From Octopus sinensis (taxonomy: Eukaryota): DNA of 64,000 nt. The notes below the pieces were generated by a model. The model made no database searches. It was not told the origin of the DNA and worked only from the letters and a program-made list of their open reading frames with translations. This document shows, one piece after another, positions 1,023-63,580 of this stretch. Every line of letters starts with the position of its first letter. Position 1 is the stretch's first letter. A program made the translations under genes and the position numbers. The stretch covers positions 72,664,001-72,728,000 of the forward strand of contig NC_043005.1 of NCBI RefSeq assembly GCF_006345805.1, written 5' to 3'.

Positions 1023-1604
1023 CACAGACATGCAAGAAGTAAATAGACACCTTTACTTTTCAAAATCTTTTATTTGATATTAATTGGTTGAAGGATAGGT
1101 TTTCTTCTAGCTGCTCATCTATAATACCCAAGTTATGCAGATATGTAACACACATTCTTGGACTAACTTCTAGCTGTTTTACAATGTCAGAAGCCTTCAA
1201 ACAGGGTTCATTTTCCACAATTCTCTTCAAACAGTGAAGCTTCCTTTCCGAGGGCCCATGTCGGCTGGGATGAGAATCTGATCTGTTGATTCTTTTCCTT
1301 GGATTCTGAATTGCACTATGATTCTATTAACAGTAACAAGAGGAATTTGAAGATTTTCGGCAATTTTTCGCTGGCTAAGACCAGTCTCAGATTGCCCAAC
1401 AATATGATCTCTTTGAAAATCTGAGAGTTCTGCTGAATTTTTTGTGCATGTCATGGTTACTCTTCGCAAATGTTTAATATAATGGCACCTGGAATGAAAA
1501 AGTATAATTATATTGTAAATTCTACCCCGCTGAAAACATATTAAGATGCTTAGATTAGAAATTTTGAAAATTAAATGTGTCTATTTACTTCCTGCATGTC
1601 TGTG
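1023..1604 (-). mobile_element. Internally deleted Tc1-like DNA transposon retaining the transposase N-terminal HTH
   Basis: ~43-bp TIRs (cacagacatgcaagaagtaaatagacacctttacttttcaaaa / ttttgaaaattaaatgtgtctatttacttcctgcatgtctgtg) flanked by TA. Minus ORF 1227-1469 [41 protein letters not shown] resembles the Tc1 paired-like HTH. No DDE domain. Confidence 0.85.
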
Positions 1605-7114: not shown

Positions 7115-7560
7115 TCATCCAGTCAGGCTGATTGCCCAGACCAGCCTGACTACCTCTCTCCATCCCTCCCAATCTTCCATTAGTGGTTTTAGGTCTTCAA
7201 CTTGGCATCCAACATCTTCTGCAACCTGTTGTATATACGTCTTCCGTGGTCTTCCAGCTACTGTGGTACCATGATTTGGTGTCCACAGCAACATATTACT
7301 CACAAGGTCTTCTTTACTTCTCCAGCAGTGACCAACAAACCTCAATTTCCTCTCTTCTATGGTTGATGAGAAAGTTGGTACATTCCCATATAACCGTTGT
7401 TTTGTTGGGTGCTCCCTCCAAGAGATGCTGAGGACTGCATGTAGCATTCTAGTGTAGGCACCGTCCAGCATGCACTTGAGTCTCTTGGTGAGAGTCCAAA
7501 CCAAAACTCCATATACAAGCACTGCTGAACTTTTATTGCAGAATAAAATCTTGTTCCATT
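7115..7560 (-). mobile_element. RTE-clade LINE 3' fragment (ORF C-terminus)
   Basis: LVYGVLVWTLTK...LDGAYTRML..VLSISWREHPT...LYG...ERKLRFVGHCWR...LLW.P..G...GRPRKTY...MEDWEGWR: post-RT C-terminal motifs of RTE elements. Confidence 0.85.
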
Positions 7561-7664
7561 GTATGTAGTAGCAACAATATTAAGATGCAAACAATAACAA
7601 ATATTTCTGTATTAAAATCTCAAAGGAATTTGTGTTCCTTCCATTGACATAAAAAAAGAAAATA

Positions 7665-17880: not shown

Positions 17881-19410
17881 TGATTGCTTTTTATTCAGCA
17901 GATATATTCAGCACCATCCATTTGATGGGGGGCATTTTGCTCATAATAATATAAAGGGCTACAGAAAAATTATGCTACTTTTATCAAATCTTGCGCTATA
18001 TTGCAATTTGTATTGTATAACAAAATTGGTGATGCTATTTATTTTATGCATAGGCTCTTTTCATACCAATCCACCTGAGAATATCTCTGATTTTGAGATA
18101 AAACTTCTCATTTTAAAATGTCCATGCTTAAATTAAACCCTTCCATCATAACTTTATGCATGGTTCTGTAATAAATTTAAGAATCAAAGGTTAGATTCCA
18201 TAATTTATTCCCAGATAGGAATATGTCTGAAAAAGACAAGATGATTACAACTGAAAAGCCTTTAACCATAAATATTCTTGAACAGTATTGACCAGGTCTC
18301 TACACAACAACAGCAATGCTTCTCATTGCCGATAAACTATTTTTACTATAGTTATTTATTAGTATCATTTTTAGTTGATGATAATAATTTACGCTGTAAT
18401 TTTCTGAGATATCAATTCATCTTTTGATTGTTAAATCACTGTCTTATTTTATTTATTTTTCCAAATTATATTCTTCACTTATCTCCAACTGAAAATCACT
18501 AGAATATTCTAAAAATTTTATGTGACATAGGCAGAATATATTGAAACTTCTTTACTTTACAGTACTGTGTTTAAAAACTTCTGTCATATCATTCCAGTTT
18601 GTTCAGGTGTGGTGAAATATATTTCCTCTGTAAAGAACATCATCTTTTTGGACATCTGCAGTGATTTTTCTTTCATTCTACTCAATTATGCAATAACAAA
18701 ATTGAGAAAAATGTACAACTTGCTAGAAATCAAATATTGCCAGAAGGCACAAGGAATGTCCCTGCCAACAGCAGAGAAAGTAAATACGAAAATAAATAAA
18801 TACATGAAAATTAAGTGTGAGTCTCTCAGTTTAAACAAGTGCAGTATGACATTAGCAGTAGCCATAGTGAGAGCCCTGGAAGCCTGTGTTAGTCTGCTTC
18901 CAGCAAATTTCAATTCAACAGACGACCATTTCCATGCAGGATTTGTTTTGCTATGTCTATTGAGAGATGTCAAAGTCAGTTTCTTAAAGGAATCGGTTCA
19001 AATATTGAAATGTGCTGTTTCTCATCCTCAGCTGTATTTAGACTGTTTAGCTAGAGGCTGAAAGGATAATGACTCGGTATTATACACTACCTAAATTGGA
19101 ATTAACACAAAATTTTCTTTATAGGGAATTATAAATAATTGGAGGTATCTAATTTTGACTCCTTAGTATATACCCTAAAATATTACACTGGATGTATTGG
19201 AAGAAGTTTGCTTCCCAACCATATGGTTCCAGATTCTGCCCCACCTCATGGCACTTTGGGTAAATGTCATCTACAATAGCTTTGGGCTGACCAAAGCATT
19301 GTGAATGGATTTGGGCAGAAACTGAAAGAAGCTCGTTGTATATATATATATATAACTGTATGCATGTATATATATATATAAGGAGAGTGGTCATCATTTC
19401 CCCTTCTATA

Positions 19411-33989: not shown

Positions 33990-35449
33990 TCCAAATACAT
34001 ACATAAACATTGTACATTTCACATATTTATGAATGTGTCTTGTAGAAAATATACTGATGTCGGTTTTTAACTCAAATAAAATGAAATTCCTATCTCCTCC
34101 AAATTATAGTTACAAATTTAAGTTCCTTACATTTTGAGAAATTTGGTTATAATTGCTAAGTAAGTGATTTTTTTTTGTTTTGTATTTTTCTTTTTAATTT
34201 TAATATTTATTCTCTGTTCTCGCTTCTTTGATTATTGTATTGTACCAATTCTCCTGTAACAAATCTGAACTTGGACAAAACTAACAAACCATAGAAAACA
34301 TTGAAAACACACATGTACACACACACACACCAGATACATTTATGTGCATGCCACAACTGGAATCTTTTCTGAGAGTAAACACTAATCCTCTGAAGGTATG
34401 TATGCATACATGTGCGTGTATATGTCTGCCTGTCTGGCTGGGTGGCTGTCTGCTGACCATCTTTGTATTAATTTTTATGAGTTTTCTTTGAAAATTTTAT
34501 TGATAGAATTACTTTGAAAATTCTAACGAATCTTTTCAAGGAGAATAAAATTCTGATCTATTTTTTATTAATATATTTTGTTTTGTTTTTGTTTATTTCC
34601 TTCTGTGTATATTTATTTATAATTTTTACTGTTACCATTTCCTTCATGTTATCTAATTCAAAGCATTTAACTTAAATGCATTGTTTTTATGAGAAATTCT
34701 CTTTGGTGGAAGGCTGTTTAGAAAAGAGACTGTGTTTTGTAGGAAAACTGTTATTTTCTACAAAGACATCATCTCTTATTTTTATTATTATTATTGTTGT
34801 TGTTGTTGTTATAAAATTACATTAGCCATTTCCCTTATTCTTCTTACTGTTGTTGTGATAGTGGATGATTTGGAAAAAATTACCTGTTTCTTCCATACAA
34901 AGATTCTTGTTTGTTGGCAAACTCAAAGTGCTTTGTTCAGCAAGAATTGTTTAGTTTGTTAAAATATCTTGGAAGGAAAAAAAATATTTGAAGAGGAAGT
35001 ATTTTTATTAATGCAAAAAAAACGATAAATAAAACTAAAAAAATATAAAACACTCAGTAAACTTGCAAATGTAAAATTTTAATTTTTCATGCTTTAACGG
35101 TTTTTTTTTTAGTTTTTATTTTTTCTATTCTCTCTTAAAGTTAAAAATTAAATCTTCAATAATTCCTTTCAAATTTTGACCACCAATAACAAAAAGGGTA
35201 GCCTCTAAATGGCTAATAGCAACCAAATCAACCTCAAACCAGACAATACCATAATATAAAAAAAAGAAATGTGAAACATTGAATAATAGAGTCCATGGTA
35301 CATTGTGTCATTAAATATTTTTCATCATGGGTTTATTCAGTGAGGGCTGATTTGGGGATCAGGAAAAGAGGTACTGAAATAAAATGCAAATAAATGTTTC
35401 AACACATCTATATATTTATATTTATTTATGTTTTTTTTCTCTTTTACAG

Positions 35450-35685
35450 GTCCTGCAACAGGGAGTATACAAATTCTCCATATAGCTGTAGGGACATCTA
35501 TATCATCATTCTTCTGTATAATTTTGGTGATATGTGGATTTTATCATCGGAAAAAATTTGGCGACCGCAAGCCACCTGAACAAGATCATGTGGAAGTTCG
35601 TTATGTGTCCTCATCAGGATGTAATACAACTGACAGACTCCTAACACAGGAGAGCCCTAAGTGTCAAAGGATCTCTATTGTATGA
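35450..35685 (+). CDS. Probable last coding exon of a single-pass type I membrane protein (TM helix plus ~50-aa cytoplasmic tail with C-terminal PDZ-binding-like motif)
   Basis: Strong acceptor ttttttttctcttttacAG|G (AG 35448-35449), phase 1. Translation (G)PATGSIQILHIAVGTSISSFFCIILVICGFYHRKKFGDRKPPEQDHVEVRYVSSSGCNTTDRLLTQESPKCQRISIV*: ~24-aa hydrophobic stretch, basic stop-transfer HRKK, polar tail, terminal S-I-V. Sequence is non-repetitive. Family not recognised; upstream exons not found in window. Confidence 0.8.
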
Positions 35686-36343
35686 CTAATGTTAATGTTA
35701 GCTGTTACACAAAACCAACACGACAACCTTGTGATTGAATTCCACAGGATCTGGGCAGTGATTGCATTGGCAATGATGATGATGTTGGAAAGGAAGGTCG
35801 TTTACACTGATACCACTTCTGTTAATCTCCCTTTTACTTCAGACTTGGAGCTACTTCCAGCTAAACCTTTCAGAACAGCGAAAAATATAGCATTCGTGGT
35901 CAGTACTACTAACGTCAATGCCACCACCACCACCACCACCACCATCAATCAGGCCATCTGGTATACTATGTTATTATGTACTGGAATACTAAATACATCA
36001 ACAGTTTGTTGTACACAGGCTGTGAAAATGAAACTGGGCCATTTTTTTCATCAACATTGGCGTTGTGGACAATCACTTTCTTGTTGAAAAAATCCTATTA
36101 GTGGTGGACACTGCAGATATGAAAGAACATTTCAAACTAGCCAATCAAGATGTAGGCCATGTGACAAACCCCTACCCCCTTAAAATAAAAAAAAAGATAT
36201 CACAAAAGAGAGATAAAAACAGCAACAAAACTTCTTTTTTTTTTAATTATATGACTGCTTTTGTAGTCAATGACATTTCTGACTTCAACGAGAACAGAAG
36301 GGAAAAAGAATCAGGAGAAATGATATAGAAAACATTAAAATTG

Positions 36344-36388
<45 letters not shown>

Positions 36389-36586
36389 CATACACATACA
36401 CACACACACACAGATGTTATGTCTAACCACAATATTTGAAAGAGGAGAATATGTTAAACGATAACTGGGAATCAAAGTGAAAAATCAAAATTATATATAT
36501 ACATACATATAACATATATATAAACACATACATGTATGTATTATATGTATCCATGTCTGTGCTTGTATATATTCACATACACAAAT

Positions 36587-36644
<58 letters not shown>

Positions 36645-37150
36645 ATATGTATATGTAGATACTGTTATGCATCCACATATACATATATTTATATACATAC
36701 ACATTTTTTTTTTCTTTTAGAGCTACTCCAAATATGATGTTACTAAATTACGTCACCAATAGTTATAAGTAATTAACATATAAGTAAAAAAAAAAAAATG
36801 GTTAAAAAATGCAAAAAAAAAATCACATAAAAACAACCAATCATGAACTAACAATGCCAGCAATACTGACAGAGTTAGCGTACCATTAGCAAATTGTTGT
36901 TTCAAGTAATAATAGCGAGATTGTGTCAAGGGTACCACTTTTTTTTTTTACCATTGTTATTTCTTTGCTTAATCTTTCTTCTCTAGACTTGAACCTGTGG
37001 GCTAGCAGGCTGTTTCATCAGCTCAGCTAGAAAGTATTTTTGTTGTGTATATTTTTTTTAATTTATTATTATTATATTTAATTAAACTATTTGAAATTTT
37101 TAATTAAATCAATAAATAATAATAACAATGATGATGATGATTATGATGAC

Positions 37151-37197
<47 letters not shown>

Positions 37198-37882
37198 TAA
37201 TAATAATAATAAAATTGAAAAACTGAAAGAAAAAAAATTAGCAAAATCAAATGTGTAAACAAACTGGACATTTTGGCAACAAAAGAGTAAAAAATAACAA
37301 CAAAAAAACCCTAAAAGAATGAATTTATGTGTAAAAAAGTTTAGAAAATTGTTATGGAAATAAAATAGAAAAAGAAATGGTATGAAAGTAAGCATGTTAA
37401 AGATGTTTGCGGAATAGACAGACAGGTGAACAAAAAATATCTTGACTGTATTGATTTGGCTGTTTTGCAAATCCATTATCATTTGTTTACATATGAATGA
37501 ATCTTTTATTCTGTATTGTATGTGAGTGTGTATGAGTGTGTGTGTATGTGCAAGTATGTGTTTGTTTGTGGGCATATGTGGTTGCTAGCATGTATGTGTT
37601 GTGTGTGTGTGTGCACTAACCAGTTAACATTCAAAGTTATTTGTGGTACTGTACAGGATTTTTCCCATTTGTATCCTTGTGAGCATTCAGATATTTGCCC
37701 CCGCCACCTCTTATTTTTTTTTTTTTTGTATACACAAACTTCTGATTTTTCTCTCAGTCAATCACAGCCTCCTCCTCTTCCTCATTCTCCTCCTACTTTT
37801 CTGTTCCCCATATTCTCGAAGGAAAACAAGCAAACTGAAATGCTATAAACAAAAATTTCCTCCCCACCAAGAAACAAACATG

Positions 37883-37916
<34 letters not shown>

Positions 37917-40703
37917 ATAAATAATAAAAAAAAACATGGATGAAGTAACATAACATCGATTTAACAGAATTTCATCTCATTATTATTACTAAACATCAAA
38001 TGTTATTAAAAAAGAAAACTGAACAAGTCTTTTTTTTTTATAATATACACACAAAGAGCTGAAAGATCAAGAGTATATAAGGTTTTTTTTTAAAAAAAAG
38101 AACCTGTAAAAAATAGGGGGAAACAGTTAAAGCAAATCAGCTTCAAAGCTAAACAAAAAAAAAATAATGATTGCTACAATTACATGGAGTTGTTGTTTTC
38201 CCAACTGAAAATTGTATATCCGTATTAGAAAAAAAATTGTTTGAGGTATTCCTTCTCTCTCTCTCTTATAATGTTTTGTAGTGAAATTTGAAAATAAAAT
38301 CATATAAACCAATACAAATCTAACATATCTGTAGATTTCAGATGAAGACGGTTTAGTCTGTAGTCAACTATTAATATCTAATCATAATGGTATGTTGTGC
38401 AGGTATGTTGAATAATTAATGAATGCAAGCTGCTTGGAAAGAAAAAAGAAGGAAAACTAGAGGTTATATGTGAATGCTTATGTATGCATGTTGCAATCAA
38501 ATGTGAATACATTGGTTATATGCATATGCAAATGCATGTATATGCATTTTTACATCCATGTATATATATATATGTGCATATGCATATATATATTTATACA
38601 TATATATACATACATTTATGAGTGTGTGTACATATGTATATGCATTGTCTTCCTGATCATCACATTGATTAGAATTGTGTCTACTGTATTAATACAGTAG
38701 ATATACAAACAATATGTTGAGAGAAAATGCATAGAATTACTAACAAAACATGTGACTACATGTTTGAATGTAGTGATGAACCTAGTATGTGAGCTCCTCA
38801 CTGGACCATGTGGGTACAGACAAAAAACAGATACAGTTATATGTTATTCTGTCTACTACCATGCATAAGTCTTCATGCAAACAACCTTCTGTGTATGTAT
38901 GACTGCATGTATGTATAAGTATGAGTGTAAGTATGCATGTGTGAGAGAGGTATGATATCCATTTTATCATAATTAATTTTTATTAGTTTCACTTTGTATG
39001 AGAAAAAAAAAAATAATTGTCAAAATTATGAAATTTTTAGTTGTTTTCATTTTTTAATTACTAAATTTCTAACCTTTATATCATAAAATTAAACATAAAA
39101 ATTAAACTTCATTTTTTATTTTATTTATTATTTCTGAAAAAAAAAAAAAAATTCTGAATTTTAAAAAAATAAATAATATGAATCTAACTGTTTTGTTTCT
39201 CATATCGAAAATAATTAAAAATTCTTTGTTTCATTTTATTTTGGGCAAAAATGAAGTTACTGCAAGTTCTTAACGATTTAGAACCACACCGCTGAATAGA
39301 GTAGGCCAGCTGAACAATCTTGAGAAATGAATATTTAAACTTATTAACTCATAAAATACTTTATTCTCCAGCTTACTTCATATAGTTATAAATGCTGCCA
39401 AGTAATGTGGTAATGTGTTGTATGTGTGTGTATATAAATATATATGTATACATTTATATATATCATATTATGGGTATATTTATACATATACTAGGTGCTT
39501 TTTGATTCTATCTTTATAGAATATTATTACATAAGAACTGGAGAAATATGTTTTTTTATCATTCAATTCTTGAAATAGATTTCATCTGTGTTCATTTGAT
39601 AATGGCAGGCAGAGTTCTTGTGAGAACATTGAGAACATTGAGTCTGATGAAGTTGTCAGTACTTCTTATGATTAACAAATGTTATATTTGGTATTTGCAT
39701 GATTGACTAATGTCCATGTAAGAAATTTCTGATCGAAGTATCATGTAAACAGCAAATCATCACTGCTTAATACTAATACTAAAATTTCTGGACATTCTCA
39801 ACTCTGAATAAATGGAAAGAAATCATTGAAATGGTCTGGTTGTAAGTCATTCCTGTTAACAAATACACCATATTCATTGTTATTCATTGACTTCTCACCG
39901 AAAAAAAAAAAAATGAAACAAAAACACATCCACTTACTCTGGTTCACAAACACTTCAGCTTTGGTTTAATCAGGTTCAACATTTGATGATTATACTAAAT
40001 ACTAATTAAATTAGCAACCAGCAGTTTTGTTCCTATATTCACAAGTTAAGTAATTACTTGGTTCTAAATTAGGTGAAATATATGGGAAGAAAAAGAACGA
40101 AAAAGAATTTAATTAGTCAAATCAACAAAGAAATTCATTACCTTACACTATAAATTACTTAATATCGAAAACAAAAATGTAGCAGATTACAAGAAAAAAA
40201 TCAGCAAAACAACATAGAAATTGTTATAAAAATCCAAAATATAAAGTGGAGGTGGGTGTGGGGATCATTATAAACCAATTCTAAATGTCAGTGAAACTTC
40301 TATTTCTGCCATGAAAATTTTTATTTCGTTTAGTTACATTTTTATGGAAGTTAAGTGTTTTTCTTTTAATTGCTTTTTCTTTCCTCCTTTATTTTTTTTA
40401 TTTGTGAAAGGTTAAATGCCTGCTGCTTTCAACTTTTACAAAGTGATGTTTATTAATTATTACAACAATTATTGTTTTCATCAACATGAGAAATATTAAA
40501 GCTACCCTTGTCATCATAGATAATTTTTACATCTACCCTATTATTGTTATCTTCTGTCATTATTATTATTATTGTTGTTGTTATTAGTTTTATCATTCTT
40601 CATAATGCAATATATATATATATATATATTTATATGTATATACATATATTATATATATATATATATATACTATATATATATATATATATATATACATATA
40701 TTA

Positions 40704-50606: not shown

Positions 50607-53600
50607 ATGGAGTGTGCCAATAAGTAAGACTTCATCGCAGTTGTAGACCTGAGATAATGAAACAATTGGTTTAATTTGTTCCCTTAATGTACCAAAAGAT
50701 ATTTCTTCCAATGGATTCCTCAGTTACATGTGATTTACTTAGATATAGAGTATTATGGCTGAGCATATTAATCTTGTTCAAAGCAATGTGACATTAAATT
50801 CTGGAGAGTAATCTGCAGTTCTGTGAAGAGAAATTGGGATTTCAATAGAATTAGGATATGTAAAGGACATTGTAATCAAGGGAAATAAACTGTCTGAGAA
50901 AAAAGCTTGGGAGTGAGCAAAAGATAGAGAAATATTTGTGAATGACTGTTTTTTTATAATTCTAAAACCCTTTTTTTAAATTAGATGCAACATATATGTG
51001 CATAGAAAATGCATATGTGCAATACTCTGATAGACTACATTTACATGGGGTGGGTGTATATGAGCAATATTAGGATTTCCAATATAAGTGGCTTAGGAGC
51101 TGTTGAAAAAGTTATGTTCCTACTATACTGTGATTGTCTGTGAGGAAACTATTGAGTAGCAAAGACTTATTTGTTAAAATGTTATTTATCCAGATAAATA
51201 TTAGCATATACCTAAACCTATGCCTATGAGATATTGGTATAAACAGATTCCAGTATCTCTTCTCTACCGAATGTATAGATGACTATTATGTCTAAATCTT
51301 GAGCCATGATTGTAAAGGTAAAATAAATAGCCTTTTTTCTCTTTTTGTGTATATGTGTAAGAATTAGCCATAGACCTAATAACAACACTGCATAGAATAT
51401 CAGAAATGATGATAATATTTAATATTATTCTACATCACTAATAAAGGGATTAATCTATGCAGATAATAATATGATACCATTGTGCAGATTCCATTATACC
51501 TTCCCTGCATCAGTATGAGCCAGAAGACTGTGATATGCTGTATCAATTTTTCAAAAAGGAAAAGCTACAAGATGTTGCTTTCAGTTAGGAAGGAATCCGA
51601 TAAAAAAATTCAACCTCGTGTTTATATATTAGTCCAGTTTCTTTTTTTTTTTCTTTTTGTGATTTTTAATTTTATATTCAGTCATCTGAAACTGAGTGTG
51701 TTGCTGTAGAGCCATAACCTTTCAGCCCAGAAGATAGGCTGATATTATTTCAGGGATGTAATTGGTTGGACTGCAGATATATGAAATCTCACAGAAAAAA
51801 ACACTGTATAAAATATTCACTCTTGATTCTGGGGTATAATTCACAGTTCTGTGAAGAGGGAAAGGATTAGTTAGGGAATAATAAGTTACAAAGTAGCAGA
51901 CGTGTTAGAGAAGAAACGGTGAGCGGAAATAGCATATGTGAAAGCTAGTGAGGGGTGGAGGCTTTTGAATAAAGGTTTTCTTATTCCCAAACCGTTTTCT
52001 TTTAAATTAGATCCAGACTATATATGCATGGTGAATGTATACAAACAATACTCTAATAGGCTGCATTTGCAACAGAAAATATCTGAATATAGGGCTCTTC
52101 ATTATATTTTCCACCCAGATGATAAATAGATATTTCCCTGTACATAATACTTTCTGAAATGGTTCTGGCTGTATTTGAACTCGAACAAAAAAAAAAGGCA
52201 CATGAGCTACCAAATTGCAAAATCAAACCTGTTTACTATATAATGACCATTGCTCTTCTCTTTTATTGAAGCTGTTTTGTTTTAGTGAAAATCATGGAGG
52301 AACAAAATGCTAAGTAACTGTAGACATTATTTAAACTACATTACTAGAGGCTCCAAACTTGTTACCACCAACTATCATTTCGGTCATGCTTGCCTCATTC
52401 AACTTTATATTCAAACATACCAGTCATCTGAAAGATTCATTTCAAAATAATCAGTGGTTTTTAATTAAAAACTGAACAAATCTCATATTCTATCATCTCT
52501 TTGATTCTCATTTAGCAAATTACTCTAGATCTCTCTAAGAGAGACATTATCATAAAAATATACATTTTATCTACCTACCCAGATCTCAATAAATTCCTTG
52601 TGTGTACGTGTGTGTATATATACACATACATATATATATATATATATATGTATGTATATGTATATATGTATATATATATTTATGTGTATATATATAATTG
52701 TTTTTTTTTTTGCATTTTAGTCATACATACTATGATTGTTGAAATTAAACTTGGAATTGTTTTCATGTGCAAATGTAAATGTATTTTCTCATTTCTCCTG
52801 TTAGATTTTTTTTTCCCTTTCATTGTCTAGAAATGTGATGGTTAAGTGATCAAAATGCTGGACAACCCAATAGTTATAGGTCACATGATCAGACTCTGTC
52901 ATAAATAATACAGTATCTTTGGCCTGTTACATTATACTTCTTGCCTCAGTCTAAATAACTGAAATATAAACGCCACCCCTATTTCATTGTTCAGTGATTG
53001 ACATTAGAAAAAGTACCCAGCCATGAAGATATCAGCTCCAACAAATAAAAGCAAATATCCAGTTCAAAAGTTTCAAGCTCATCCAACCCATGCAGGCATG
53101 GAAATGTGGATGATTAAGATAGAAATCAAATTGTTTTACAATGAAAAGAAATAAAAGTAATACATATACATATACATTTATCACAAATGACCAATACAGT
53201 ACTGGTAACTTGATCAACCCAGTGACTCAAACCTTTAAAAGAGAACATGGCTTACAAAGTGAAGAATTTTGTCATTCATTTATGTTGACGACATGATCTC
53301 CCATTTGTATAACCCCAGCCCCTTAAAAAAGAAATTATGTCCTGTTGAGAAACTGATGTAGATAAAAATTTTTGCCATGAATTGACACAGCATGGAATCT
53401 ACACCAGACCTACATGGATAAAAAGACCTATTCAACAACCCTTTTCTAGGGTATCTGGTAACCTAACAATGAAGTCAGAAGTTTGAAATTGTCATGAAAT
53501 AAATACGAATATTATGAAGAAGTAAAGACCGTAAGTCATACGAATGACTACGTAACCTCACAGAATATGTTTATCGGCTTACAGAAATTTTTTTTCTGCT

Positions 53601-61569: not shown

Positions 61570-62191
61570 ATTCTATTTCGTCAAAGGCTTCGAGTAGTAT
61601 GTCTCTAAATCTCTGCCCATTTGCAGGATCTTTAAGCTTCCAGACCCTTCTCCTCCAAGCAGGTCTTCTTCTGGGCAACCATTTAGCTCTGATCCTGAAG
61701 TTGCTAACTACTAATCTATGTTGAGGAGTGCATTCTTCGCCTGGAAAGGTTTTGGCATTTATAATCAGCCCCCTTTCCCTTTTTCTGGCAAGGATGTAGT
61801 CAATCTGGCTGGTGTGTCTGCCAGAACGGTAGGTGACTAGGTGAGAGGTGGGTTTCCTGAAGTTGGTATTGCAGACCATAAGGTCATTTGCATCACAGAA
61901 CTCCAGCAGCCTGGTTCCCTCCTCATTACGAGAGCCGAAACCGTAGCCTCCATGGACGCCATGGAAGCCCCCGACATGCCGTCCGACATGTCCATTGAAA
62001 TCACCTGCCACGAAGAGAAGGTCACTGTCATTTGTCAACGAGGTAGTTCGCAATAGGGTGTCATAGAATTGGTCATTTTGTCCTTGCGGTAGCCCTGGTT
62101 GAGGGGCATATGCCGAGATGATGGTAGCTGTCCTGTGGTGAAGGACTAATCTAATTTTAATTACTCTGTCACTTACTCTGACTACCTCGAT
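61570..62191 (-). mobile_element. RTE LINE AP-endonuclease fragment, open frame of ~207 codons
   Basis: [15 protein letters not shown]...ISAYAPQ...FY...GDFNGHVG...[20 protein letters not shown]...NTNFRK...TY.SG...QIDYIL...QHRLVV: APE endonuclease motifs of RTE ORF; no internal stops. Confidence 0.95.
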
Positions 62192-62224
<33 letters not shown>

Positions 62225-62310
62225 ATATATATATGTATATATATATATGTATATGTATATATATATGTATATATATACATATGTATATATATATATGTAT
62301 GTATATATAT

Positions 62311-62492
62311 CATCATCATCATCATCGTCGTTTAACGTCCGTTCTCCATGCTAGCATGGGTTGGACGGTTCGACCGGGGTTCTGGGAAGCCAGAAGGCTG
62401 CACCAGGCTCCAGTCTAATTTGGCAATGTTTCTACAGCTGGATGCCCTTCCTAACGCCAACCACTCCGTGAGTGTAGTGGGTGCTTTTTACG

Positions 62493-62865: not shown

Positions 62866-62868
<3 letters not shown>

Positions 62869-63580
62869 CTTCCGGAAGAAAAGTTCTGCAGTAGGTCTCA
62901 AGATGAACCGCATGAAAACAAAGTTCATGCGGTCAGACAACGTACCAACAGGTCGAATGGTGATCGGCAGTGATGAAATAGGGGAGGTGAGAGAATATGT
63001 CTACCTGGGACAGGAAGTAAATATGTGCCGGGATATCAAAAAGGAGATCTCACGGAAAGTAAGGGCCAGATGGAAGGCATTCAATGGCATAAGGGATGTG
63101 CTCAAGGGAAGGTTGGACAGGACCACCCACGCCAACCTCATTAACAGTGCAGTTCTGCCTGCAATGTTATATGGTAGTGAAACATTGGCTACCACAAAGA
63201 GAGAAGAGCAAAGACTGATAACGGCTCAAAGAGCCATGGAAAGGTCAATGCTTGGTATCTCATTGAGAGAGCACATAAATAGCAACATCATCAGAAAGAA
63301 GTCCGGCGTGAGAGATGTCATCGCAGAGTATACTCGCAGCAAGTGTAGATGGGCTGGACACGTCGCCCGGCTCACCGATAATTGGTGGACGCACGCAGTT
63401 GTCGAGTAGTACCCGCGTGAGCAGAAAAGACCTCCACGACGGTGGAGTGATGAGTTCAAGAGGACGATTGGGATCACGTGGATGAGAAAGGCACGATCCA
63501 GAGAGGAGTGGACAGTGTGCTGTGACCAGCGGTGTCAAATGGACGCCTAACGGACTGGTCGGTCAAAATGATCAAAGTGA
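62866..63580 (+). mobile_element. 5'-truncated RTE LINE (end of RT plus C-terminus, short 3' repeat tail) inserted in (TA)n
   Basis: [12 protein letters not shown]...EYVYLG...VLPAMLYGSET...QRAMERSMLG...WAGHVARLTDNWWT; one premature TAG (63407-63409) at an expected Trp, then YPREQKRPPRRWSD; tail tcaaaatga-tcaaagtga; TA arrays on both sides. Confidence 0.92.

What the first reader, a model, noticed from the sequence alone, without database searches (positions are those of the whole stretch)
35680..36087. Candidate stop-codon readthrough: TGA-CTA followed by 133 in-frame sense codons that would mask a PDZ-binding terminus
Seen: the exon's stop is TGA (35683-35685) followed by CTA ATG, and the same frame stays open to TGA 36085-36087 (LMLMLAVTQNQHDNLVIEFHRIW...GQSLSC). 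The other two frames close within ~20 codons. Established: UGA followed by CUA is the leakiest known stop context in animals and viruses, and neural readthrough is common in invertebrates. Inference: at roughly 6% stops per codon for this composition, such an extension arises by chance at about 1e-3 to 1e-4 (rough estimate). Readthrough would bury the ...SIV PDZ ligand and act as a scaffold-binding switch.
Basis: partly seen in the sequence, partly recalled or inferred. Interest (0 to 1): 0.75.

Follow-up and report, generated by a model that had tools for sequence, protein, structure and literature searches.

The report
Octopus leaky stop, long conserved tail
An octopus gene for a cell-surface protein built like the worm synapse organiser LEV-10 ends at a leaky-type stop codon followed by 133 more readable codons that a related octopus has kept almost unchanged; this is most likely a conserved regulatory tail of the mRNA whose open frame is chance, but real readthrough into a longer protein is nearly as likely and remains untested.

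Summary
Observation confirmed: TGA-CTA at 35683-88, then 133 sense codons to TGA 36085-87. The exon is the transmembrane/PDZ-ligand last exon of a 5xCUB-LDLa (LEV-10-like) octopus gene. 30 of 37 mollusc homologues end in S-I/M-V, so the TGA is the ancestral stop.

For readthrough: chance about 1e-3 per locus; CDS-like GC (0.41); a weak in-frame codon signal (p=0.04 in one model, opposite sign in another); only 1 substitution in 358 covered nt in the most distant organism, against 6 plus 2 indels in the next 243 nt.

Against: that change is non-synonymous, with none synonymous; the GC-rich conserved block runs about 100 nt past the second stop; no stem-loop; a hydrophobic, not disordered, tail; no homologue; a bivalve orthologue has TGA-TGA-TAA; a PDZ-less isoform already arises from an upstream alternative last exon.

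Verdict: conserved regulatory 3'UTR with basal leak 0.48; selected octopus-restricted readthrough 0.38. A PDZ 'switch' is not supported. Squid and cuttlefish DNA and ribosome profiling would decide. The scan noted TGA-CTA readthrough before only in two fungal genomes.

The parts
35429..35449 (+). 3' splice site (pyrimidine tract + CAG) of the last exon; phase 1, completing the last Cys of the LDLa module
   Evidence: sequence; upstream exon ends CAA T|GTGAGT; contigs of X8 and X19 begin at 35450
35450..35685 (+). coding part of the TM/PDZ last exon of the 5xCUB-LDLa gene (residues 778-854 of P0001)
   Evidence: 100% identity over 77 aa to P0001; 13 upstream exons on the same strand and contig
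35473..35544 (+). transmembrane helix (approximate limits, read from the hydrophobic run)
   Evidence: translation; conserved in homologues
35674..35682 (+). C-terminal S-I-V, class I PDZ-type ligand (motif class recalled)
   Evidence: 30 of 37 homologues end S-I/M-V
35683..35688 (+). ancestral stop TGA in leaky-type context CTA
   Evidence: unchanged in 4 of 4 runs
35685..35696 (+). ACTAAT-GT-TAAT, a match to the bipartite QKI/STAR response element, overlapping the stop context
   Evidence: consensus from PMC2697983; 0.16 such matches per kb in the window, binding untested
35686..36084 (+). 133-codon open frame after the stop (candidate readthrough extension)
35731..35787 (+). most hydrophobic stretch of the extension (codons 16-34, mean Kyte-Doolittle 1.75)
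35822..35842 (+). acceptor-like site inside the extension (15 of 18 pyrimidines + CAG), phase 1 to the open frame; use not seen
   Evidence: no joint
35921..35944 (+). (CCA)8 repeat giving the Thr run; bridged only in run X1
36085..36087 (+). second in-frame stop TGA
   Evidence: unchanged in 4 of 4 runs
35450..36185 (+). GC-rich (0.40) low-divergence block: coding exon + extension + about 100 nt beyond the second stop
36184..36189 (+). AATAAA, first candidate poly(A) signal; use not shown

Best explanation
The TGA is the ancestral stop of a LEV-10-like CUB/LDLa membrane protein and leaves its PDZ-type tail free, and the 400 bases after it are most likely a 3'UTR block conserved for its RNA sequence, in which the open frame is probably a chance by-product that ribosomes would enter only at a basal leak of a percent or two. 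Shown: exon identity, ancestral stop, low divergence of the block in one related organism, and an upstream alternative last exon that encodes a PDZ-less form. Inferred: the constraint acts on RNA (protein- or microRNA-binding sites; a QKI/STAR-type element overlaps the stop and would explain the CTA), and any leaked product, with its hydrophobic tail, would be unstable.
For: Organism D shows 0 synonymous changes in about 75 synonymous sites and 1 non-synonymous change (35740 T>A, Phe>Ile) in the covered extension; coding constraint alone predicts 1.9-5.3 synonymous changes at 2.5-7% divergence, P(0)=0.15-0.005. GC stays at 0.40 for 98 nt past the second stop, and divergence there (1 of 98) does not differ from the extension (1 of 358; Fisher p=0.38). 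No enrichment of Q/E/D/G/A (25 vs 23.3 expected) or depletion of L/K/N/I/F (41 vs 41.7), GRAVY +0.33, unlike top-tier fly extensions (PMC13278127). No stem-loop after the stop (z=+1.15; lowest z -1.22 in 17 windows). No homologue of the extension and no fused form among 37 hits or 22 listed members of the two cephalopod clusters. Bivalve orthologue L002 ends GTA TGA TGA TAA. Alternative last exon without PDZ ligand at G000:C9:72635418-72635501. ACTAAT-GT-TAAT overlaps the stop.
Against: It needs two coincidences, a 1-in-300 to 1-in-900 open frame and CTA after TGA (about 1.8% of TGA triplets in the window). The extension is far more conserved than the next 243 nt (Fisher p=0.019, 0.004 with indels) and has no indel where covered. 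With the broader codon model the open frame scores best of the three (margin 0.08; 3 of 84 real UTR frames reach it; p=0.042 against an open-frame null; 12 of 48 true CDS chunks score lower or equal). GC 0.41 is reached by only 3 of 28 real octopus 3' flanks. No binding protein or microRNA was shown; the neutral divergence of organism D was not calibrated.
Confidence: 0.48

Rival explanations
1. Selected, lineage-restricted stop-codon readthrough: a near-cognate tRNA decodes UGA in the CUA context and a few percent of chains gain 134 residues, which bury the PDZ ligand and would add one or two hydrophobic segments around a Thr-rich loop, giving a differently anchored or faster-degraded isoform.
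For: UGA-CUA is among the strongest autonomous signals (PMC5868278); open-frame chance 1.1e-3; 1 substitution and no indel in 358 covered nt in organism D, both stops intact in 4 of 4 runs; CDS-like GC and 3-base periodicity (chi-square p=0.004; 0.038 without the CCA repeat); broader codon model favours this frame. Lead only: two insect genes I recall as CUB proteins are listed readthrough genes with TGA-C (CG42402 44 codons / AGAP003572 104 codons; AGAP006444 18 codons), but their orthology to this gene was not established.
Against: No synonymous change and one non-synonymous change; periodicity not significant against an open-frame null (p=0.085); a codon model from this gene's own exons gave the opposite sign (z=-2.1); block extends past the second stop; no structure; hydrophobic composition; absent in the bivalve and, if W stands for TGA in P0003, P0006 and P0036, the next codon does not start with C in three more molluscs; abundant readthrough not found outside Pancrustacea.
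Confidence: 0.38
2. Alternative splicing uses the acceptor at 35843: from the upstream LDLa exon or a donor at 35621 (both phase 1) it would enter the open frame and translate its last 80 codons without readthrough.
For: Acceptor has 15 of 18 pyrimidines, like the main one (16 of 18), and the right phase; the family varies its C-terminus by splicing in molluscs and insects.
Against: No joint and no contig break at 35843 in 4 runs (contigs drop rare forms); such sites occur about once per kb here; joining from the upstream exon would replace the last LDLa Cys by Tyr; it leaves the first 52 codons unexplained.
Confidence: 0.05
3. A-to-I editing turns UGA into UGG (Trp) and opens the extension, a cephalopod-style stop-loss; the conservation would protect an editing duplex.
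For: Recoding is abundant in coleoid neural tissue and stop-loss editing is handled in cephalopod pipelines (PMC8382921).
Against: No A>G at 35685 in 4 of 4 runs (contigs show only common variants); no local duplex; stop-to-Trp editing reported as non-existent in squid RNA/proteome ranking (10.64898/2025.12.15.694494); a 5' G neighbour is disfavoured by ADAR (recalled).
Confidence: 0.05
4. The ATG at 35689 starts a separate 132-codon downstream ORF by reinitiation after termination.
For: ATG is the second codon after the stop and is in frame.
Against: No such protein predicted in the protein collection; same lack of protein-level signature as above.
Confidence: 0.02

Closest known systems
Vertebrate UGA-CUAG readthrough genes (AQP4, OPRL1, OPRK1, MAPK10, VDR; PMC5868278, passages)
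   Same: UGA followed by CUA; no structure needed; VDR is a precedent for a lineage-restricted 67-aa extension with only weak coding signal
   Different: fourth base is A, not G; extension twice as long; readthrough not measured; context not kept in other molluscs
Abundant insect readthrough (PMC5100048 passages, section 17, supplement rows; PMC13278127 section 7)
   Same: TGA-C, long extension, long multi-exon gene, raised nucleotide conservation after the stop
   Different: no synonymous excess, no Q/E/D/G/A enrichment, hydrophobic rather than disordered; species outside Pancrustacea
C. elegans LEV-10 (PMC9083331 and PMC7173930, passages)
   Same: five CUB + one LDLa + one transmembrane helix; nematode and insect proteins align over nearly the whole ectodomain
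   Different: orthology not tested by a tree that includes LEV-10 itself; mollusc tail ends in a conserved PDZ-type ligand; receptor clustering untested
QKI/STAR response element (PMC2697983, passages)
   Same: NACUAAY core with neighbouring UAAY half-site
   Different: overlaps the stop codon; binding and conservation beyond octopus untested

Membership tests
Programmed UGA-CUA readthrough genes | UGA followed by CUA(G) | tested here: met
   UGA-CUA-A; the G of CUAG is missing
Programmed UGA-CUA readthrough genes | stop, context and frame conserved in relatives | tested here: inconclusive
Programmed UGA-CUA readthrough genes | protein-coding substitution pattern in the extension | tested here: inconclusive
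   0 synonymous, 1 non-synonymous change; too few changes
Programmed UGA-CUA readthrough genes | coding-like codon use in the read frame | tested here: inconclusive
   z=-2.1 with a 749-codon model; p=0.042 in favour with a 9,138-codon model
Programmed UGA-CUA readthrough genes | 3' stimulatory RNA structure (common, not obligatory) | tested here: not met
Programmed UGA-CUA readthrough genes | ribosome footprints, peptides or reporter activity past the stop | not testable with these tools
   only assembled contigs were available
LEV-10-like CUB/LDLa membrane proteins | five CUB domains | tested here: met
   PF00431, 5 stretches, E 1e-88
LEV-10-like CUB/LDLa membrane proteins | one LDLa module before a single transmembrane helix | tested here: met
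   PF00057 at 738-775, E 0.0043, below the curated cut-off; hydrophobic run in this exon
LEV-10-like CUB/LDLa membrane proteins | orthology to C. elegans LEV-10 | not tested
   LEV-10 sequence not retrieved; nematode full-length relatives found
LEV-10-like CUB/LDLa membrane proteins | clusters acetylcholine receptors | not testable with these tools
   needs experiment
Selenoprotein (UGA = Sec) | SECIS element in the 3'UTR and Cys homologues | tested here: not met
   no SECIS among 46 weak Rfam matches in 35400-38600; homologues stop here
Stop-loss A-to-I editing | A>G at the stop in RNA | tested here: inconclusive
   none in 4 runs, but contigs drop rare variants

The most novel reading that the evidence does not exclude
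Octopuses have evolved programmed readthrough of the ancestral stop of a LEV-10-like synaptic organiser, producing a 134-residue longer, re-anchored isoform that lacks the free PDZ ligand: a first mollusc case in the papers searched, and a hint that cephalopods add readthrough to RNA editing as a way to diversify neural proteins, perhaps in parallel with readthrough of insect CUB genes.
Probability: 0.35. Interest if true: 0.65.

Novelty: new member of a known kind. Interest (0 to 1): 0.42.

Why it matters
Functional readthrough is thought to be abundant only in insects and crustaceans. Three paper searches turned up no report for an octopus or other mollusc gene. A real case would extend the phenomenon to cephalopods and justify a genome-wide three-frame test there. 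If it is only a conserved UTR, it still marks a tightly constrained regulatory block on a likely synaptic gene and warns that long open frames behind leaky stops can be passengers of RNA-level constraint.

Tried and rejected
Assembly error or premature stop: rejected. Selenocysteine: rejected. Pfam DUF1475 match to the extension (E 4e-4, 20.7 bits, under the 22.3 cut-off): taken as a hydrophobicity effect, not controlled. Decayed ORF in the +2 frame (His run), suggested by the small codon model: not upheld by the larger model, no Pfam match. Homologue searches with the extension (0 of 2 candidates; 3 of 15, all exon-only gastropod pieces) are length-limited, so weak. The protein atlas could not read the extension. 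Sequencing runs: no RNA holder listed on record, so 'RNA' is a guess. A second laying on 36655-37125 to calibrate divergence gave only repeat noise and no cover of 36720-37030, so no calibration. Inverted-repeat scan returned only TA repeats among the 25 longest of 354 pairs. Metagenome scan gave 1 locus from 54 pattern matches. Three of 32 control loci were dropped by eye before counting (L025, L043, L047: ORF ran into an intron or wrong frame), and loci on small unplaced contigs were left out (32 of 60 used). Attempts to tie CG42402 or CG32432 to this orthogroup through papers failed. The Zolotarov data supplement was too large to read, one Jungreis supplement file was not searchable, the Shoshan supplement was listed but not read, and PMC5499236 was not held; these may hold species lists, editing sites or UTR divergence that bear on the claims. 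Earlier-findings look-ups by place, sequence and mollusc words were empty.

Full report
Observation. The sequence is as described...ATT GTA TGA CTA ATG..., TGA at 35683-35685, 133 sense codons, TGA at 36085-36087. The other two frames close after 0 and 16 codons. Of 40,000 dinucleotide shuffles 44 are stop-free (1.1e-3). In the window, 24 of 7,547 stops are followed by 133 or more sense codons, 10 of 7,547 when low in repeats, and 5 of 1,197 when also matched for GC; each count includes this locus. Among 29 real octopus ORF ends the median second ORF is 10 codons and one reaches 139, in a simple repeat. The feature is therefore unusual at about 1-3 in 1,000 per locus.

The gene. The 77 residues before the stop are identical to the end of P0001, named tolloid-like protein 2 of Octopus bimaculoides. 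It has five CUB domains and a weak LDLa match, and 13 further exons lie upstream on the same strand over about 880 kb of G000:C9. This is the layout of C. elegans LEV-10, which clusters acetylcholine receptors (PMC9083331, passages). Full-length relatives occur in other molluscs, insects, a tardigrade and nematodes; I did not test orthology to LEV-10 itself. Of 37 homologues of the exon, 30 end in S-I/M-V, 3 show the motif followed by W, 2 diverge at the last Val and 2 are partial. The TGA is thus the ancestral stop and the PDZ-type end (motif class recalled) is conserved. The gene has a second, upstream last exon encoding a short hydrophobic tail with no PDZ ligand (G000:C9:72635418-72635501), matching isoforms in cuttlefish, abalone and Pomacea and similar alternative ends in flies and mosquitoes. 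A PDZ-less form is therefore already available by splicing.

Conservation near the species. Twenty rows from 9 studies and four organism labels hold the stretch. I laid 4 of them on 35380-36330 (assembled contigs, RNA status guessed). Organisms A, B and C show no difference in the extension where covered. Organism D shows one substitution in 358 covered nt (35740 T>A, Phe to Ile) and no indel, against 6 substitutions and two 2-nt insertions in the next 243 nt (Fisher p=0.019; 0.004 with indels). Both stops and the CTA are intact in all four; 35910-35953 is bridged only in X1. So the region is constrained. What kind of constraint is open. There are no synonymous changes in about 75 synonymous sites, where coding constraint alone predicts 1.9 at 2.5% divergence (P(0)=0.15) or 3.8 at 5% (P(0)=0.02). 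The 98 nt after the second stop have the same GC (0.40) and 1 substitution (p=0.38 against the extension); the sharp rise in divergence begins near 36186, in A/T-rich sequence that may simply mutate faster. The neutral rate for D was not calibrated: the attempt found no cover. P0001 differs from the G000 exons at 12 of 749 residues, but I did not establish which organism D is.

Conservation further out. One bivalve-type orthologue from a metagenome contig ends KVSIV GTA TGA TGA TAA (L002), which excludes a useful extension there. In P0003, P0006 and P0036 the W after the terminal Val probably reflects gene calling with TGA read as Trp (inference); the next residues, W, K and Y, cannot begin with C. 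No protein resembling the extension, alone or fused, was found. Squid and cuttlefish DNA, the decisive comparison, could not be reached. If readthrough exists it is confined to cephalopods or to octopuses.

Coding signal. A codon model from this gene's own exons (749 codons) scored the open frame as non-coding (z=-2.1). A broader model (9,138 codons from 29 receptor and homeobox ORFs plus those exons) reversed this: the open frame is best of three, margin 0.08, reached by 3 of 84 real 3'-flank frames, p=0.042 against an open-frame null, with 12 of 48 true CDS chunks at or below it. The synonymous-only score is flat, but so is that of the true last exon. Three-base periodicity is significant raw (p=0.004) but not against the open-frame null (p=0.085). 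GC of 0.41 is matched by 3 of 28 real flanks. The peptide is hydrophobic (GRAVY +0.33), with no Q/E/D/G/A excess, unlike high-confidence fly extensions (PMC13278127, section 7). No stem-loop follows the stop and no SECIS was found. ACTAAT-GT-TAAT at 35685-35696 fits the QKI/STAR element NACUAAY + UAAY (PMC2697983, passages) and offers another reason for the CTA; such matches occur at 0.16 per kb in this window, so it is a lead only.

Literature. UGA-CUA alone supports about 1.5% readthrough and UGA-CUAG genes 1.3-17% in human cells (PMC5868278, passages). Abundant readthrough was found only in Pancrustacea (PMC5100048, section 17); I saw no mollusc named in its text or searchable supplements. 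Searches for readthrough with octopus, cephalopod or mollusc (listings only) showed no report on this gene or on molluscan nuclear readthrough. The same supplement lists TGA-C readthrough for CG42402/AGAP003572 and AGAP006444; I searched those names from memory as CUB genes, one paper links CG32432 to sol-1 (PMC13123972, passages), and I could not show that either is this gene's orthologue. Stop-to-Trp editing was reported as non-existent in a squid RNA and proteome ranking (10.64898/2025.12.15.694494, passages), and no A>G appears at 35685. Octopus 3'UTRs are long and carry conserved microRNA sites (PMC9699675, passages).

Weighing. My rough estimate (judgement, not a computed result): prior for functional readthrough at a TGA-ending octopus gene 0.3-0.9%; likelihood ratio about 12 for CTA, 40 for the length, and about 0.3 for the rest combined. 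That gives odds between about 1:2 and 1.3:1. I put a conserved regulatory 3'UTR with basal leak at 0.48, selected readthrough at 0.38, splicing into the acceptor at 35843 at 0.05, stop-loss editing at 0.05 and reinitiation at 0.02. In either main case most protein keeps its PDZ ligand, so 'switch' overstates it. The finding is a good, cheap-to-test candidate, not an established case. Two earlier scan notes describe TGA-CTA readthrough in fungi; they concern other DNA and were not checked.

Noticed in passing
G000:C9:72635418-72635501 (L016:1502-1589): Alternative last exon of the same gene, about 64 kb upstream of the TM exon, encoding a short hydrophobic, possibly GPI-type tail; it also ends in TGA-C. 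Equivalent isoforms exist in cuttlefish, abalone, Pomacea and insects.
   Followed up: partly
window 35680-35685; L002:717-722: Last Val codon plus stop read GTATGA in both octopus and the bivalve; Pomacea models (P0013, P0068, P0069) continue KVSM-ENGHHH..., as if the GT of this codon were a splice donor that swaps the PDZ end.
   Followed up: partly
window 35450-35685: This exon is 99-100% identical in protein between octopus and the squid/cuttlefish-type P0002, while the whole protein is 88% identical.
   Followed up: partly
window 38335-38391 and 51487-51585: An O. vulgaris gene model (P0042) splices from inside the TM exon to these two stretches; probably a prediction artefact, no RNA support checked.
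   Followed up: no
window 35913-36098, + strand, +2 frame: 62-codon stop-free stretch with a His run overlapping the extension; no Pfam match.
   Followed up: partly
window 18531-19058 (+): 176-codon non-repetitive open frame inside the large intron, no Pfam match; overlaps a 103-codon frame on the minus strand.
   Followed up: partly
window 1063-1580 (-), 7118-7579 (-), 61571-62350 (-), 62867-63406 (+): Transposon remnants: Sleeping-Beauty-type HTH and an endonuclease-reverse-transcriptase match by Pfam; the other two look like LINE fragments by eye.
   Followed up: partly
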